From: Eremomyces bilateralis CBS 781.70
Lineage: Eukaryota
DNA length: 47,984 nt
Reading direction: 5' to 3' (one strand)
Assembly (NCBI GenBank): GCA_010015585.1
Contig: ML975166.1
In this document: piece after piece, positions 37,437 to 44,144 of the stretch
Layout of the letters: every line of letters begins with the position of its first letter
Position numbering within the stretch: position 1 is the first letter of the stretch
Notes under the pieces: generated by a model
What the model was told of the DNA's origin: nothing
The model's input: the letters and a program-made list of their open reading frames with translations, nothing else
Databases searched by the model: none
Program-made: the position numbers and the translations under genes

Positions 37437-38061
37437 TCAATCCTCCCAAACACTCCGCATCCTCTCCTCCTTCTTCCTCTCCTCCTCCCTCGCCTCCTCC
37501 ACCCGCCTCCTCTCCCTCTCCCTCGCCTCGTCCCTCCGCTTCCTCTCCCGCTCCCTCACCACCTTCTCATACTCCTTCTCCTCCTCCGTCGCCCGTCCCA
37601 CCTTCACCCCCAGCGCCCCCGCAATCAGCCGCCGCGCCACCGCCGCCGACTTGTCCGGTCGTACGGACGCGTCGCCGGAGCTGGTGGGTGTCGTCCTGGA
37701 GGAGGATGCGTAGGAGGGGTGGAGAGAGGAGAGGTGAGTGTCGTGGGAGGGGAAGGTCGCGGATGGTGAGGCGGGGGTAGGCGGTGGTGGGGAGGGAGAC
37801 TGGGCCGGCACTACGCCTCCATCGGAGCTTGCAGACGCTTTCGTGGGCTGTTTCTCAGGCTTGGTTGCGGTGTCATCATCAGAGAACTCGTCCTCCCAGG
37901 AATCGGCGACGGGTTCGGCAGGTGGTTTTTTCGAGGCGGAGTTTCTGGGGGAGATTTCGAGTTGGGAAATATCGGGGAGGGAATCTGGGGAGGTTAGTCG
38001 AACTACGGGTGCTGATCGGGGCGGCTGGCATTGAAACACCTTTTGCTGACTTGGGGGCCAT
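37437..38061 (-). CDS. Conserved fungal hypothetical protein with C-terminal charged coiled coil, 2 exons
   Basis: MAPKSAK, intron 37985-38039 (GTGTTT..ACTAAC..CAG), then VADSWEDE, RPDKSAAVARRLIAGALGVK and an E/R/K-rich helix ending SVWED*. Confidence 0.8.
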
Positions 38062-38498
38062 GGGGAAGGGTGGGATTGCAGAGAGGCGGAGTTATACGAA
38101 GCGATTGAGCAGGCGTGAGAGCGTCGATGTGGCGGATACGGTGGATGGTTGGTCTATACTATATCATTGTTGTACGAATACCTTTTCAGTATATAAAACG
38201 GCGAAGGAACAATACTAAGTCTTCTCTCATCCATCGGGTTCAGAAATTGCGGAATAACGCGGGGGGTGGGGGAGGCTTGGCGCTCTGCTGGACAATCCTC
38301 CGTTCCAACGAAATCTCAAGAGTCCACGCCTCAAATAACACCTCAGGAGTAAGGACTCAGGAGGCATGACGTGCCATACCCGCCGATGGGTAAAGCCAGC
38401 CTCCGATATTCCACCTCAAAGCTCTATCCCGTGATTCGGCAGAGTCCGAGGCCTGAAGCCGTCAGCCGACACTGGGGAACCCGAAACCGGAGAGCCGC

Positions 38499-38538
38499 TA
38501 TTCCCTGGTTATTCCCTGGTTATTCCCTGGCTATCCCC
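38499..38538. repeat. 11-bp tandem repeat TATTCCCTGG(T/C) x3 plus a partial copy, in a divergent promoter
   Basis: Read directly. Confidence 0.9.
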
Positions 38539-38724
38539 GAGCATTGCCGTGGGAATAATCATGTCCGTCCGTATAAATACACGAGGCAGGTCCTCAATTG
38601 TGTGACAACTGCTTGAATTCTTCTTGGATGTGGATGTATACTGGACGGGACATGTAAAACAGCGTATACGTCTTTGAAATCCGCGTTCCGTTCATTTGTA
38701 TACCCGCAAAAGCTCCCCGGCATC

Positions 38725-40992
38725 ATGCTTCGCTCCTCTCGGCATCTCCTCTCCTCCCCCTCGATCCCCCATTCTGCCCGCCTCTTTTCCTCATCCGCGG
38801 TCCACCATGACTATTCCGACACGATCGGAAACCTCAAAATCGGCAAGGACACCCGCGTCATCTTCCAAGGCTTCACCGGCCGCCAGGCCACCGCCAACGC
38901 GAAGCAGTCCATCGAATGGGGGACGAACATCGTCGGCGGCGTGAGGCCCGGCAAGGAAGGCGAGCATCTGGGCCTGCCCGTGCTCCCGAGCGTGCGGAAG
39001 GCGAAGGAGCTGCTGAATCCGCACGCGACAGGCATTTATGTCGCGGCGCATCAGGCCACCGGGGCCATTGAGGAAGCCATCGAGGCGGAGATTCCGCTGA
39101 TCGTGGCGGTGGCGGAACATATTCCGCTACATGATATCCTGCGTGTAAGTCCAAACCTCGAAACCATGCCATTGGTTTTCGTGCCTCGCAATGGGAGCTG
39201 AGAGAAGCCAGATCCACTCCGTTTTGCAGACGCAATCGAAATCGCGCCTCGTCGGAGCCAATTCCCCAGGGATCATCTCCGCCCTGGGCCACTGCAGAAT
39301 CGGATTCCAGCCCCTCCCAACCTTCTTACCCGGCCATGTGGGTATCATCGCCAAATCCGGGACTCTCGGCTACGAGACCGTCGCGTCGCTCACCCGTGAA
39401 GGGCTCGGCCAGAGTCTTTGCATCGGCATGGGCGGCGACGTCGTCGCCGGAACCAACTTCGTGGACGGCTTGCGTCTCTTCGAGCACGATGATGATACCG
39501 AGGCCATCATTATCGTGGGAGAGGTGGGTGGACGGGCCGAGGAAGATGCGGCGGAATGGATCGCGGACTATAAACGGCGGACGGCCAACCCCAAGTGAGT
39601 TTCGAGAATAAGGGCATAGGAGGAGTTCCAACTGACCAAATATCAGGCCGATCGCCGCCCTCGTGGGAGGCATGTGCGCGAAGCCAGGCTATGTGATGGG
39701 CCACGCGGGAGCATGGGCAGCGCCTGGTGAATCATCATCGTGGGAGAAGTTCAGGGCACTGGAGAACGCCGGAGTGGCCATGGTGGACCATCCATCGAAG
39801 TTCGGCGGCGTGATGAAGACGCTCCTTGCCAACAGCGGGCGAAATGTCGAGAAGATCGTGAGTTCACTTGAACCTAGACACCGTAGCCGTTCTTCTAACG
39901 CAATGGAAACAGAATCAATCCGCGAGCGCTGCTCAACGGAGAGGATACCACACCTCGTCCCGACGCACTCCTGTCCGTCCCACTCTCCCATCCGCGACTC
40001 CGCATGTCAACGACCGCCGGAGCCTGCACATCAGCGCCGACCAAGCCGGCCAAATGCTCTCCTCGCGGGGCTTCCCCGTCTCCGCGGACGAGCCGACCCC
40101 TTCCGACTCCCAGCTTCTCGTCCTCACCGTGGACCGCACGGCACGAACCCCCTGCATCATCGCATCGCCGACGACCAACCCGTCTGGCGTCCACAAGCGA
40201 GCGGCCAAATTCCCCTTCGACCACCGCGCCGGCCCCACGTCGACGACGGTGTCCGCGATCCTGAACCACCTGCAACTCGGCTCTGCACCACCCACAGTCC
40301 AGTCGTCCGTCGGCAAGCTGATCAACTCCCTCTACGACATCTACACATCCCACGAGGCCGTCTCGCTATCCGTGCACGTCTCACTTTCTCCACCGTCCGA
40401 GTCCACCCCGTCCCCACCCCTTCAGATCACCTCCCCCAACTTCTCCTTCGACGACGCCGCCTTCCGCAGCTGCAAGCGTCACGCCGACCTGCACACCACC
40501 TCGCGCGTCACCACGGGGACCCACCCCACCGAACTGGCCGCTGAGCCGCACGGCATCGTCTACGTCCACCTGACGAACCCCGACGCCCGCATCGGCACCC
40601 TGGTGAACGGCGCGGGCCTCGCGATGAACACCGTCGACGCCCTCGCCGCGCGCGGCGGCCAGGCGACCAACTTCCTCGACACCGGCGGCAAGGCCACGTC
40701 CGACACCGTGAAGACGTCGTTCGAGCTGATCCTCCGCGATGAGCGCGTCAAGGTTGTGTTTGTGAATATCTTCGGGGGCTTGACGCTGGGCGATATGATT
40801 GCTGAGGGTGTCATTAAGGCGTTCCGGGAGTTGGGTTTGGATAAAGAGGGGGCGGTGCCGGTCGTGGTGAGAATCCGGGGCACAAATGAAGAGGCGGGGC
40901 AGACCATGATCAAGGAGAGTGGGCTGCCGTTGTATGCATTTATTGATTTCGAGGAGGCCGCCGCGAAGGCAATCGAGTTGGCCGGACGATGA
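38725..40992 (+). CDS. Succinyl-CoA synthetase-like alpha + beta-derived fusion protein with mitochondrial presequence, 4 exons
   Basis: Alpha half: TRVIFQGFTG, LVGANSPGII, AKSGTLGYE, GLGQSLCIGMGGD, phospho-His motif MGHAGA. Beta half: FSFDDAAFR, IGTLVNGAGLAMNT, NFLDTGG, VNIFGG, VVVRIRGTN. Introns 39145-39211, 39595-39646 and 39858-39912 join both halves with no stop. Confidence 0.9.
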
Positions 40993-41621
40993 ACACCGTC
41001 GAAAGTTGGATTGCACTGTACATATTGGTAGATCATTTAGACTTGATGCGCATCAAAAGACCTTTGAAGATGAATGTTTCCTCGTACAGTTGGGCATTAA
41101 GCGGAGCGTGATACAAATGCAGATATCACAAAGACGCGGGCATGATGAGCACCATGTGGCTTAAGACTTGCTTCCATTTCATGACTCCTATCTAGATGAA
41201 AGAATCTACCCTCTGTAGAGTCCTCCTATCTGATGCTTCTGATCTGTTAATCCACCTTGCAACGAACTATCGTGATGTCACTCTGGGCACCACCCGACTC
41301 ATCTCTCAGAATCCTCCATGATCAACCTATTCTCTCTTCTCAATCTCATCCGTCCATCTCATAGCTTTTTTTTGTGATTTTCTGTCAAATATGAAAAGAA
41401 AAAGGAACCGGGGCAGGCATGTGTATGAGGATTGGGGAAACCATGCGTAGAATTAGTGTTAATGGTGCTGTGTGAAGTGCCTTTGAAGAAGTGCCCATGA
41501 CCCGAGTCCGAGGAAGCCAGGATGAAGGAAGCAAGCCGAGTTATATGTAGCGACTCCGAGCAATGACGCTTACTTAAGACTGCCGAAATGGAGTGCAGGG
41601 CAGTAGCTGGAAATTCCGGGT

Positions 41622-43603
41622 CTACTCTTCAGCCTTGATCGTGATGGAAGAGTCAGATGTAAGGAATTTGTTGTCGTCTGCTTCGACCGTGATGCGGACG
41701 CCAGCATCAGAGCCAGGAGAAGAGACAGCAGAGCCGACAGTGGAGTTGGCGGTGGGCGTGGTATCACCACTGACTCCGCCCACACGAGTCAAGAGGTCGG
41801 TCTGGAGTGCCGCATATTTGCTGTGGAATACGTTAGCGAAGAAGATCATTGGGTATGGAGGAGAGAGTTACCCATCAGAGGAAACGGCACCAAGTTCAGC
41901 AGGCATAGCCATGCGAGGGAGCTGAACTTCGGGAATGTTCCCCAGACGGGCCTGAGCCACACCGAACTCAAACTCGGCCGCGCGGAATTGACGAGCAGCG
42001 GCGGTCTGCTGCTTGAGAAGCTTCTGTTCATGGGTGTCGGAGAAGCGAATCTGAATGACATGGTCTTCCCCACCCGCCTTCTTGATCGTAATGTTGTTGA
42101 AAGTGCCGATGACTTCCTCACAAACATCGCGAGTCTCGAATCTGTGCTGAGAGTCAGACTGTTGTGAGAGAAAAGTGAAGAAGCTCACCTGGCAAAGCCG
42201 ACTCCACGGCCATGGCCATCCGAGGAACGAAGGATGCGAGAGGAGATAACATGGTGCGGAGCGAAGATCTCAGAGAGCTCATGCTCATTCATGTTCCGAG
42301 GGATGTTGGAGACGTAGAGGTTGGTGTTTCCCTCGTCAGAAAACTTCTTAAGCTTGGAGTAGAACGATTCCTGTACACAAGAGTCAGTGGAGTTGAGGAC
42401 AGTGAGTGGTGGCAGCAACCTACCCTCGCAAAACTGCACTCATACCCGAGGTGATGGAAACCACGGATGCAACCCTCAGCATCCTCGTAGTTGTGGTACT
42501 TGATGAAACCGAAGCTATTCCTTTCAGTGAATGAATAGTGTGATGGAGGGTCGAAGAACTCACCCCTTGCACTGATTCGACTTCATGTCAATGATAGCCT
42601 TGGAAGATTGAATCTCCCCAAAGCGTGCCCCATAGGCATAGAGCATGTCATCAGTGGTCTCGGGATGGAGGCCACGGATGTAGACATTGGTCTCGCCATT
42701 CTTGTTCTCCAAGGCACGATCAAGCGGCTTGACAGGAGAGCTAGGCGCAGGAATGGCGCGAGGAATGGTAGGCTCCTTGTTCAGAAGGAGCTGAAGATGC
42801 AAAGGAAGCTGAACAGGTGCCGTCTGCTTGACAGGAGTGACCAGATTGAAAGCCAGAAGGTTGGTCGGAGACGGCGTCAGGGCCACGTTCGGCGTGGAAC
42901 GATCAAAGACGGCCACCTGGCCACTGCCAGCTCCATACGGAACTGGAGTGGGAGGGACATCCTGGTCATTGGAAGAAATGCTCTCCCGGCGAGAGTTGAT
43001 CATGCTGGGTGTGACCATCGTGGAGTCAGAGGGCAAGACGCCACGCGGAGTCCACTGGTGAGCCGCATCGCCGTTGTACTGAGTGTACTGACCCGGATGA
43101 ACGAACTGTCCCATCTGACCGTACAGATTGGATCCGGCCTGAACTTGTCCACCGCCATACATCATCCCGGTGTTGTGACCCCCATACATCGGCATGGCAG
43201 GGTATTCGGCAACTGAGTGCCCTGCAAGCTTATGAGCCACAGGGTTGTAGGAAGGAGGAGTGGTCAAAGCAAGCCCACCGAAATTGTTGACCAAGTGGTT
43301 CATGGCATCGCCGGCGTTCTGAGCCCCCGCTCCAGAATGATAGGGGTAAGGACGAGTCCCGTAGCCACTGTAGCCGTTCGCACCGGTTGCAGAATAGTTC
43401 TTGGTGAGATGGGTCGGGGTGTAGTCCTGCTTGCGACCAGACATGTTTGCATGGAGGTTGCTCATGTTGATGTTGGCTGAATCACTAGAAATTAGCCTCT
43501 TCTGCTCATCCTGGCGAGAAAGTGCGGCAAGTGCTTGAGCACCGATGAGCTGATTAACAATAAGCGCGTCGATGCCAGCTGGACGCTTAGGGGGAGAAGC
43601 CAT
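41622..43603 (-). CDS. Two-RRM RNA-binding protein (MSSP/RBMS; Rim4/Spo5-like), 5 exons
   Basis: RRM1 TNVYIRGL...CKGFGFIKY; RRM2 TNLYVSNIP...GRGVGFARF; IQIRFSDT. First intron 42515-42563 plus three further canonical introns. Long G/Y/N/Q/M-rich N-terminus. Confidence 0.88.
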
Positions 43604-44144
43604 GATTGATGAACTGCGAGGATGAAACGGGTATTAAAGCTCTTTGCCAGCAACTGAACTTGAATAGGGAAAACTTTTGAGAAACGAAGTGCTGAGAACA
43701 ACTTAAAGGTATCCGAAGCAATGCGGGAATGAAAGTTGTTTGGTGGAAAAGCAAGAAAGCAAGAAGAAGTGGTGGTGGGAAGAAGAAGCGTTGGGATCGT
43801 ATAGGGAAAGGGAGAAAGCGAAGAAAAGAAGTGCTAACAACAACTGAGAGTGACTGAAAGCAACAGAGAAAATGAAGATCTGCGTAGCAGAAAGAAGTGG
43901 AAGTGGAACGAAGAAGTGAAGAGTAGATGTATTGTGACCAACTTAGGGGTTGCTGGAAACAGGTGCCTTTTGGTGTACGAAGAGATGGCACAGGAGCACG
44001 AGGAAGAGAAGTTTCAAAGGACTTTGAAGAACGCAAGTGGATGCAGAATGTAAAAGAAAGATCAAGAAAAAGGTGTATTGGGAGTAGGGTGACTCTGGCA
44101 TCGAGAGTTGACAAGTTCAGTTCAGTGGGAATTGCTCAAGTTGG

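What the first reader, a model, noticed from the sequence alone, without database searches (positions are those of the whole stretch)
38725..40992. SCS-like alpha-beta fusion with an apparent internal mitochondrial presequence (candidate MPP-cleaved tandem precursor)
Seen: splicing intron 39858-39912 joins a complete SCS alpha subunit in frame to a beta-like subunit. The linker (39913-~40030), NQSASAAQRRGYHTSSRRTPVRPTLPSATPHVNDRRSLHI, is Arg/Ser/Thr-rich and almost free of acidic residues. It has two presequence-style cleavage motifs (RRGYH, RRSLH), the second exactly where mature SCS-beta begins. The N-terminus has its own presequence (MLRSSRHLLSS..ARLFSSS). Known: canonical fungal SCS uses two separate genes, and MPP cuts tandem precursors such as yeast Arg5,6 and S. 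pombe Rsm22-Cox11. Inference: one transcript is imported and cut into a 1:1 alpha/beta pair of a second, uncharacterised acyl-CoA enzyme.
Basis: partly seen in the sequence, partly recalled or inferred. Interest (0 to 1): 0.78.

Follow-up and report, generated by a model that had tools for sequence, protein, structure and literature searches.

The report
Fused, probably cleaved SCS-like mitochondrial precursor
A gene found across filamentous fungi joins the two subunits of a second succinyl-CoA-synthetase-like enzyme through a conserved internal mitochondrial cutting signal, so it is probably split in two after import, and because it has lost its ATP/GTP-binding part it must do something other than the Krebs-cycle reaction.

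Summary
Three introns give a 697-aa alpha-linker-beta ORF; spliced contigs show all three joints, including 39857/39913. The linker has two R-2 motifs (RG|YH, RS|LH). Each is in 115 of 119 orthologues; in a hold-out set of 89 they are in 83 and 87 (site-1 shuffles average 2). The 19-33-residue spacer between them is variable, basic and predicted disordered. Relatives fused in the reverse order also carry an R-2 linker (11 of 13). MPP cleavage is likely (about 0.8) but untested. It cannot be a nucleotide-forming ligase alone. My best guess is a phosphate-dependent CoA transferase or hydrolase, substrate unknown. Canonical SCS genes lie elsewhere in the genome. Six paper searches found no description; this scan noted the same gene family in three other genomes. 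Verdict: new variant of the Arg5,6-type tandem precursor.

The parts
38725..40992 (+). Gene for a 697-aa precursor: presequence, alpha', linker, beta'. Coding exons 38725-39144, 39212-39594, 39647-39857, 39913-40992
   Evidence: model identical to P0001
38725..38784 (+). N-terminal presequence-like segment, residues 1-20; predicted R-2 cut R19 L20 | F21
   Evidence: residues 1-27 of 119 orthologues are 16.8% R and 0.3% D+E; pLDDT below 50 for 1-26
38806..39933 (+). SCS alpha-like half (about residues 28-345; spans all three introns)
   Evidence: PF02629 and PF00549; phmmer E 1e-80 to human SCS alpha; Z 39.7, rmsd 1.4 A over 306 residues to 7msr_A
39145..39211 (+). Intron 1 (67 nt)
   Evidence: joint 39144-39212 GT..AG, 21 nt on the shorter side
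39595..39646 (+). Intron 2 (52 nt)
   Evidence: joint 39594-39647 GT..AG
39858..39912 (+). Intron 3 (55 nt); its removal joins alpha' in frame to the linker and beta'
   Evidence: joint 39857-39913 GT..AG, 39 nt on the shorter side
39521..39523 (+). Glu244, equivalent of E. coli Glu208-alpha (equivalence from motif position, recalled)
   Evidence: 100% of 207 fused proteins
39702..39704 (+). His287, equivalent of the phosphorylated His246-alpha (equivalence from motif position and the alignment)
   Evidence: 100% of 207
39934..39954 (+). Internal site 1, Q346-T352; predicted cut R348 G349 | Y350
   Evidence: 115 of 119; 83 of 89 hold-out; mean column conservation 76% against 29% and 23.5% in the flanks
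39946..40023 (+). Spacer Y350-S375 (26 aa, about 2.9 kDa), removed if both sites are cut
   Evidence: 19-33 aa long, 18.7% R, 1.5% D+E in 113 orthologues; pLDDT below 50 for 352-374
40012..40032 (+). Internal site 2, D372-I378; predicted cut R374 S375 | L376, the position at which the canonical beta subunit starts
   Evidence: 115 of 119; 87 of 89; aligns with the own canonical beta
40024..40992 (+). SCS beta-like half (residues 376-697) without the ATP-grasp lid
   Evidence: PF00549 hit but no PF08442 hit; alignment
40060..40110 (+). Short loop (about residues 388-404) where about 85 residues of the nucleotide-binding lid are missing
   Evidence: 37 residues from L376 to R413 against 122 in the canonical beta; 20-43, median 36, in 180 fused proteins where both anchors were found
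40606..40785 (+). Acid-binding region of beta': N570 kept; family-specific T595, K598, L628, T629 where the canonical beta has V, G, I, V
   Evidence: each rounds to 100% of 207

Best explanation
One spliced mRNA makes a 697-aa precursor (shown). Its N-terminal presequence takes it into the mitochondrial matrix (inferred). MPP removes the presequence and cuts the disordered linker at R-2 sites after G349 and after S375, dropping a 26-residue spacer and releasing alpha' (about 35 kDa) and beta' (about 34 kDa) in equal amounts (inferred; about 0.8 for at least one internal cut). The two halves stay together as an SCS-like pair (inferred from the fold). Making them as one chain would help alpha' pair with beta' and not with the canonical subunits in the same compartment (inferred). 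The pair keeps site I (CoA pocket, Glu244, His287, Asn570) but has lost site II (shown), so it cannot make ATP or GTP. The most likely chemistry uses only steps 1 and 2 of the SCS reaction: acyl-CoA plus phosphate gives phospho-His plus acid, and the same steps run backwards with a second acid. The net result is a phosphate-dependent CoA transferase on a substrate other than, or besides, succinate (about 0.35 among the chemistry options; hydrolysis of acyl-CoA through the same intermediate about 0.2).
For: Spliced joints. Motifs in 115 of 119 at each site, both in 113; 83 and 87 of 89 in proteins not used to define them. Site columns are conserved inside a variable linker (76% and 64% against 23.5-29%). 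Linker composition (R 17.1%, D+E 1.7%, S+T 21%) matches the proteins' own N-terminal presequences (16.8, 0.3, 25.6) and not the folded halves (R 4-5%, D+E 10-13%). Spacer predicted disordered. Site 1 (RG|Y) fits the R-2 rule with an aromatic +1 that Friedl et al. describe for Arg5,6 (PMC8734313, passages). Reverse-order beta-alpha relatives carry an R-x-[FLYM]-[SAH]-[TSAM] motif in 11 of 13 linkers (shuffle mean 1.0, max 5 of 13, 1000 shuffles). Lid motif 0 of 209, E[IVL]NP 0 of 209, His motif 208 of 209, Glu motif 206 of 209. Three-step SCS mechanism from PMC2440562 (passages); roles of His246, Glu208 and Glu197 from PMC10342173 (passages). E of EINP maps to E. coli 197 by the aligned range.
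Against: No protein-level data; cleavage and import are untested. AlphaFold folds the uncut chain well (pTM 0.87), so a cut is not needed for assembly. Site 1 is tighter (Q-4, H+2, T+3 at 92-98%) than the N-terminal motifs of the same proteins (generic motif in only 42 of 120), which may point to an added structural role. Residues of motif 2 from L376 on are part of the beta fold, so only its Q and R speak for cleavage, and its pattern is loose (shuffle mean 17.3 of 119). Six of 119 miss one or both motifs, two of them the whole linker, probably through gene-model errors; P0304 shows no site 1. Orthologues share ancestry, so counts are not independent events. The reverse-order motif class was widened by one letter after a first look. 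The CoA-transferase chemistry has no direct support and no precedent that I found.
Confidence: 0.68

Rival explanations
1. The protein stays one chain. The linker is a left-over beta presequence used as a flexible tether, and the site-1 motif is kept because it docks on the enzyme or a partner.
For: Good single-chain model (pTM 0.87); site 1 is more tightly conserved than the N-terminal motifs; residues 335-344 form a confident helix just before it.
Against: Residues 352-374 have pLDDT below 50 and 341-350 average 60. A docking role does not explain an acid-free spacer, the kept Q and R in front of L376, or the same motif class in reverse-order fusions, where the geometry differs.
Confidence: 0.14
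2. The linker is a working presequence for a separately made beta'-only protein that starts at M324 from an internal promoter or an internal start.
For: M324 is in 84% of 207 proteins and 190 of 207 have a Met in residues 318-347; the stretch from there to site 1 is basic and amphipathic (hydrophobic moment 0.45-0.64 for windows at 325-347).
Against: M324 sits in the last alpha helix, where mean conservation is 81% anyway and the canonical alpha has Leu. The gene has no stop after alpha', so alpha' can only be made through the full chain. This reading can coexist with cleavage.
Confidence: 0.07
3. The precursor is cut, but the pair is not a stand-alone enzyme: alpha' borrows the canonical beta to form a ligase of changed specificity, or the pair hands its His-phosphate to another protein such as a nucleotide kinase.
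For: Cutting would free alpha' for exchange; the canonical beta is in the genome. Two lidless reverse-order relatives (P0436, P0440) carry an adenylate-kinase domain in the same ORF. R413 and R527, equivalents of pig R123 and R232 by offset numbering, are invariant; their role near site II is recalled and could not be checked.
Against: The acid-binding loops of beta' carry invariant family-specific residues, as expected if beta' itself shapes the active site. The kinase fusion is seen in two related sequences only and may be a merge with a neighbour.
Confidence: 0.2
4. The pair is a catalytically dead CoA or acyl-CoA binder with a regulatory role.
For: Site II is destroyed in all 209 fused proteins examined; no activity has been measured.
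Against: His287, Glu244, Ser189, Thr191, Tyr194 and Asn570 are 99-100% conserved, which argues for retained chemistry at site I.
Confidence: 0.08

Closest known systems
MPP-tailored tandem precursors: S. cerevisiae Arg5,6; also Atp25, S. pombe Etp1, Rsm22-Cox11, SPAC22A12.08c, rice RPS14 (list from PMC8734313, passages and Discussion read; repeated in PMC8847149, passages)
   Same: One ORF, N-terminal presequence, presequence-like junction with an R-2 motif, conserved among orthologues, and products that form a complex (as Arg5 and Arg6 do).
   Different: The two parts are subunits of one active site. Two conserved sites flank a spacer that would be cut out whole. The family occurs fused in both orders and also as stand-alone beta genes. 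Cleavage is not shown. The word 'succin' does not occur in the main text of PMC8734313.
Mitochondrial succinyl-CoA synthetase (human SUCLG1 with SUCLA2 or SUCLG2, pig GTP-SCS, E. coli SucCD; the genome's own canonical pair at L002 and L004/L005)
   Same: Alpha fold (Z 39.7, rmsd 1.4 A, 306 aligned), catalytic His and Glu, CoA-ligase domain of beta; about 48% identity to the own canonical alpha and to the C-terminal domain of the own canonical beta.
   Different: Single gene; about 85 residues of the ATP-grasp lid missing; the EINP and DAK motifs lost; acid-binding loops changed; only 18% identity in the remaining N-domain of beta.
ATP-citrate lyase and citryl-CoA synthetase
   Same: SCS-derived domains; the animal enzyme is a natural single chain (hits).
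   Different: The alpha-like match lies late in the ACL chain (residues about 487-818), so the order is beta-first; ACL keeps its ATP-grasp and adds a lyase domain (recalled). Here the order is alpha-first, the chain ends with the CoA-ligase domain, and the citrate-binding Pfam hit is below its cut-off.

Membership tests
MPP-tailored tandem precursor (Arg5,6 type) | Two protein units in one spliced reading frame | tested here: met
   697-aa ORF; three spliced joints; 688 proteins of 630-2000 aa among 8000 scored, all 120 listed with both alpha and beta Pfam domains
MPP-tailored tandem precursor (Arg5,6 type) | Strong N-terminal mitochondrial presequence | tested here: inconclusive
   Composition, disorder and an R-2 motif fit; strength needs TargetP or MitoFates, not available
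MPP-tailored tandem precursor (Arg5,6 type) | Presequence-like stretch (iMTS-L) at the junction | tested here: inconclusive
   Composition matches the proteins' own presequences and the stretch is predicted disordered; the defining iMTS-L score was not run
MPP-tailored tandem precursor (Arg5,6 type) | R at -2 and an aromatic or large hydrophobic residue at +1 at the junction | tested here: met
   Site 1 RG|Y; site 2 RS|L (Leu, not aromatic)
MPP-tailored tandem precursor (Arg5,6 type) | Junction signal conserved among orthologues | tested here: met
   115 and 115 of 119; 83 and 87 of 89
MPP-tailored tandem precursor (Arg5,6 type) | MPP-dependent cleavage into separate chains | not testable with these tools
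   Needs an import assay or N-terminomics; one paper search for such data returned 0 papers
Succinyl-CoA synthetase (NDP-forming) | Alpha subunit with CoA-binding domain, phospho-His and its Glu partner | tested here: met
Succinyl-CoA synthetase (NDP-forming) | Beta ATP-grasp domain with the Lys46 / GRG lid | tested here: not met
   About 85 residues missing; lid motif in 0 of 209; the PF08442 search of the genome hits only the canonical beta
Succinyl-CoA synthetase (NDP-forming) | Site-II residues: Glu197 with Asn199, and Asp213 of beta (E. coli numbers; the metal role of Asn199 and Asp213 is recalled) | tested here: not met
   E[IVL]NP in 0 of 209. Column of Glu197: Ser here, Glu in 62% of 207; column of Asn199 and column before Asp213 variable; Asp213 column Ala or Pro in 94% (columns 491, 493, 511, 513; low-identity region, so the register is approximate)
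Succinyl-CoA synthetase (NDP-forming) | Succinate-binding loop of beta (GIV motif; role recalled) | tested here: not met
   FGGLT in 207 of 209; the canonical beta has GGIVRC
Succinyl-CoA synthetase (NDP-forming) | Succinate, CoA and NTP activity | not testable with these tools
   Needs an enzyme assay
ATP-citrate lyase (single-chain) | Beta-first order with intact ATP-grasp and a C-terminal lyase domain (recalled) | tested here: not met
   Alpha-first order, no lid, chain ends at the CoA-ligase domain

The most novel reading that the evidence does not exclude
Ascomycetes have a second SCS-derived enzyme that dropped nucleotide coupling and uses its phospho-histidine cycle as a phosphate-dependent CoA transferase, a chemistry I know of no precedent for. 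Its subunits were fused at least twice, in opposite orders, each time with an MPP-cut internal presequence that delivers the pair 1:1 and keeps it apart from the Krebs-cycle enzyme. The exact cut before L376 may free an amino group that completes an anion pocket with the invariant R413 and R527 (speculative; the role of these groups in canonical SCS is recalled, not checked).
Probability: 0.25. Interest if true: 0.85.

Novelty: new variant of a known kind. Interest (0 to 1): 0.64.

Why it matters
[quoted passage not shown] This family would be a second broad case and a clean test of that idea, because the same subunit pair occurs alpha-first, beta-first and with a stand-alone beta gene. It also means that many fungal proteins named 'succinyl-CoA ligase subunit alpha' are mis-annotated: they cannot bind nucleotide, yet their acyl-CoA and phospho-His site is almost invariant. 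That points to an undescribed mitochondrial acyl-CoA reaction in moulds, including Aspergillus and Penicillium.

Tried and rejected
1. Splice artefact: rejected; intron 3 retention and the acceptor at 39926 both lose the beta frame, and the joint is in contigs. 2. Run search: no RNA holder listed on record; run X1 was laid anyway. Contig depth cannot rank parts of the gene, so it was not used for or against an internal start, and no listed contig spans the whole gene. 3. Stand-alone beta' of this clade: the search at 177-566 aa gave mostly unnamed short gene calls; 63 of the 69 with at least 75 residues upstream of the first beta strand still carry site 1, and the four named ones inspected begin inside alpha, so I read them as pieces of the fusion. 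4. Substrate from neighbours: Pfam on 12 window ORFs gave cyclin, IF-2B family, GATA factor, Pex2/12, NMD3 and a class-III aminotransferase; 6 had no hit; no pathway cluster. 5. Itaconate lead: two sister-family models run into a MaoC/FAS1-like dehydratase (Pfam hit for P0372 only), but PMC6320622 (passages) has 0 hits for 'succinyl-CoA' in its main text; not supported. 6. Recalled gene ids: AN1793 is named only as a secondary-metabolite cluster in PMC3689640 (one passage) and NCU09810 gave 0 hits; dropped. 7. The structural paper on the site-II loop was not held and a search for its residues gave 0 papers, so the role of R413 and R527 stays unchecked. 8. Trees are quick IQ-TREE runs with SH-aLRT only; the careful search did not finish, and the alpha tree has a single, long-branch canonical row, so no order of events is claimed beyond the two gene orders. 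9. M16 peptidase search of the genome gave 9 matches that I did not assign to MPP subunits. 10. No complex prediction was run: the halves would pass by likeness to solved SCS. 11. Look-ups of earlier findings by sequence and by place showed nothing.
Full report
1. The observation. The gene runs from ATG 38725 to the stop ending at 40992 on the + strand. Three introns (39145-39211, 39595-39646, 39858-39912) give a 697-aa ORF with no internal stop. Retaining intron 3 or using the next acceptor loses the beta frame. The run search listed one holder, X1, whose RNA status is a guess. Its contigs show five spliced joints in the stretch laid: the three of this gene with GT..AG ends and two in neighbouring minus-strand genes. 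The 39857-to-39913 joint has 39 nt on its shorter side, which reaches the codons of site 1. No listed contig spans the whole gene. The model is identical to P0001, an NCBI hypothetical protein of Eremomyces bilateralis.

2. A second enzyme beside the canonical one. The genome has a separate canonical alpha gene (L002; 329 aa in my model) and a canonical beta gene (L004/L005; 443 aa). A third CoA-binding hit, L003, looks like ATP-citrate lyase (assignment recalled). The fused protein is about 48% identical to the canonical alpha and to the C-terminal domain of the canonical beta.

3. Spread. A search with the beta half among proteins of 630-2000 aa gave 688 hits among 8000 scored; all 120 listed carry both alpha and beta Pfam domains, and the named ones are mostly Dothideomycetes, Leotiomycetes and Sordariomycetes (a few bear plant or Mycena labels, which I did not check). 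A later search added 107 new proteins, of which 89 have the alpha-first order, mostly Eurotiomycetes such as Aspergillus, Penicillium, Talaromyces and Onygenales. Atlas clusters of this architecture are 94-100% eukaryotic, commonest Ascomycota.

4. The linker is under selection. I aligned 119 of the first 120 proteins, leaving out a 1548-aa merged model. Motif 1, R-x-[YFLMIV]-[HQ]-[TYM], is in 115 of 119 linkers (500 shuffles: mean 2.3, max 8). Motif 2, R-x-[LI]-x-[LIV], is in 115 of 119 (shuffles: mean 17.3, max 30). Both are in 113. The six misses include two models with no linker at all. Because the motifs were drawn from this set, I tested them unchanged on the 89 later proteins: 83, 87 and both in 81 (site-1 shuffles: mean 2.1, max 8). 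Of the six site-1 misses there, two have Lys at -2, two have Ser at +3 and two have nearby variants. Over 207 proteins of at most 800 aa, mean column conservation is 76% at site 1 and 64% at site 2, against 29% before site 1 and 23.5% in the spacer. The spacer varies from 19 to 33 residues and has 18.7% Arg and 1.5% acidic residues. The linker as a whole resembles the proteins' own N-terminal presequences and not their folded parts. One distant member, P0317, has shrunk the spacer to a few residues and keeps both motifs. AlphaFold gives pTM 0.87 with pLDDT below 50 only at 1-26 and 352-374. Motif 2 aligns with the motif that precedes the mature start of the canonical beta. Predicted cuts are L20|F21, G349|Y350 and S375|L376; products would be about 35 and 34 kDa, against 72 kDa uncut (slices computed one residue off). 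Against: a generic R-2 motif is in 109 of 119 linkers but only 42 of 120 N-termini, so site 1 is tighter than cleavage alone may need, and the uncut chain folds well.

5. The same arrangement in reverse. The profile-free search of 50% representatives and its follow-up found relatives with beta first and alpha second: Taphrina deformans, Savitreella, Physcia, Xanthoria, Exophiala and unnamed records such as P0360, P0369, P0435 and P0436. In 11 of 13 such linkers there is an R-x-[FLYM]-[SAH]-[TSAM] motif (1000 shuffles: mean 1.0, max 5; the class was widened by one letter after a first look). There are also stand-alone beta genes with their own presequence-like N-termini in Rhizodiscina, Saitoella, Aspergillus sclerotioniger, Cordyceps and Fusarium. 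In a quick tree of 66 beta domains, the 22 alpha-first proteins form one group (SH-aLRT 100), the 18 canonical betas another (100), and the reverse-order and stand-alone forms lie on the non-canonical side. The alpha halves of both orders share changes against the canonical alpha. So a second SCS-like pair exists in Ascomycota in three gene layouts. Two opposite gene orders need at least two joining events or one rearrangement, and both carry a presequence-like junction. This is the evidence for cleavage that depends least on shared ancestry of the linker.

6. Between the mature start and the conserved Arg of the first beta strand there are 37 residues here and 122 in the canonical beta (20-43 in 180 fused proteins where both anchors were found). 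The missing part holds the Lys46/GRG lid and positions 20, 42, 109 and 110, which PMC2440562 discusses for the pig nucleotide site (passages). None of 209 fused proteins has the lid motif or E[IVL]NP, while 208 keep the His motif and 206 the Glu motif. The E of EINP is E. coli Glu197 by the aligned range; PMC10342173 (passages) places His246 and Glu208 at the first site and Glu197 at the nucleotide site. A Glu does occur in that column in 62% of 207 proteins, but without the rest of the motif. The acid-binding loops carry invariant family-specific residues (T595, K598, L628, T629). Some reverse-order and stand-alone relatives keep the lid (3 of 13 reverse-order proteins match the lid pattern; P0336 scores E 2e-63 to PF08442), others have lost or degraded it.

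7. How it most likely works. Shown: one spliced frame, conserved linker motifs, intact site I, lost site II. Inferred: import, removal of the presequence, internal cuts by MPP (about 0.8 for at least one), and assembly of alpha' with beta'. Friedl et al. showed that MPP cuts Arg5,6 internally at an R-2 site with an aromatic +1, that this needs a strong N-terminal presequence, and proposed that the tandem form aids assembly (PMC8734313; passages and Discussion). Here a tandem form would also limit mixing with the canonical subunits. For chemistry, SCS runs in three steps: acyl-phosphate, phospho-enzyme, then transfer to NDP (PMC2440562). Without step 3 the first two steps can run forward with one acid and backward with another. 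My weights: phosphate-dependent CoA transferase 0.35; acyl-CoA hydrolase through the same intermediate 0.2; subunit exchange with canonical beta or phosphate hand-off to a partner 0.25 together; dead binder 0.1; other 0.1. The substrate is unknown, and neighbours give no hint.

8. What is known. MPP-cut tandem precursors are a known kind; the lists in PMC8734313 and PMC8847149 (passages) do not include this protein. It fails membership in NDP-forming SCS on the ATP-grasp, site II and the succinate loop, but it is built like one. Paper searches (listings only, except the papers named) found no description of the fusion or of a lidless beta. The library holds only open-licence papers and preprints, and I searched no supplements, so a mention elsewhere is possible. 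PMC2440562 (section 7) notes that 'an Aspergillus' has two SCS beta isoforms, without detail. Three earlier notes of this scan on other genomes reach the same reading, including the lost nucleotide domain; I had written my reading before seeing them, and they are not independent support. They do not mention the reverse-order fusions in the lines shown.

9. Verdict. Real, widespread and unstudied as far as I could find. New variant of a known kind: a probable MPP-cut precursor of two subunits of one active site, for an SCS-derived enzyme that has lost nucleotide coupling. Interest 0.64; it would rise to about 0.85 if both cleavage and a nucleotide-free CoA transfer were shown.

Noticed in passing
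P0436 (unnamed) and P0440 (Savitreella), C-terminal third: Two lidless beta-alpha fusions continue in the same ORF into an adenylate-kinase domain (PF00406, PF05191); it looks like the mitochondrial GTP:AMP type by recall. I saw no R-2 motif before it. A possible hint at phosphate hand-off, or a merge with a neighbour.
   Followed up: partly
P0360, P0369, P0434-P0436, P0440-P0444, P0454, P0463, P0516: Reverse-order (beta-alpha) fusions in two groups on the tree: one lidless, with Taphrina and Savitreella, and one in lichen fungi and Exophiala in which several keep the ATP-grasp lid.
   Followed up: partly
P0327, P0336-P0339, P0348-P0353, P0358: A sister family of stand-alone second beta genes with a lid that ranges from intact to degraded. 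The window's genome has no extra copy of it.
   Followed up: partly
P0372 (Trichoderma) and P0324 (Ophiocordyceps): Gene models join a MaoC/FAS1-like dehydratase to the stand-alone second beta, which suggests a conserved neighbour in acyl-CoA metabolism (Pfam hit for P0372).
   Followed up: partly
window 37437-38153 (- strand): Small divergent gene with no Pfam hit and a spliced intron at 37985-38039. A look-alike follows the fusion in a merged Penicillium capsulatum model (P0521; seen by eye), so the two genes may be long-standing neighbours.
   Followed up: no
window 38490-38540: A short tandem repeat of about three and a half 10-nt units upstream of the gene.
   Followed up: no
window 41257-43633 (- strand): Neighbouring gene that looks like an RRM RNA-binding protein (by recall); intron 41821-41871 is spliced in X1.
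   Followed up: no
P0437-P0439, P0445: Wasp and bee gene models with two SCS beta units in tandem; probably merged neighbouring paralogues, not checked.
   Followed up: no
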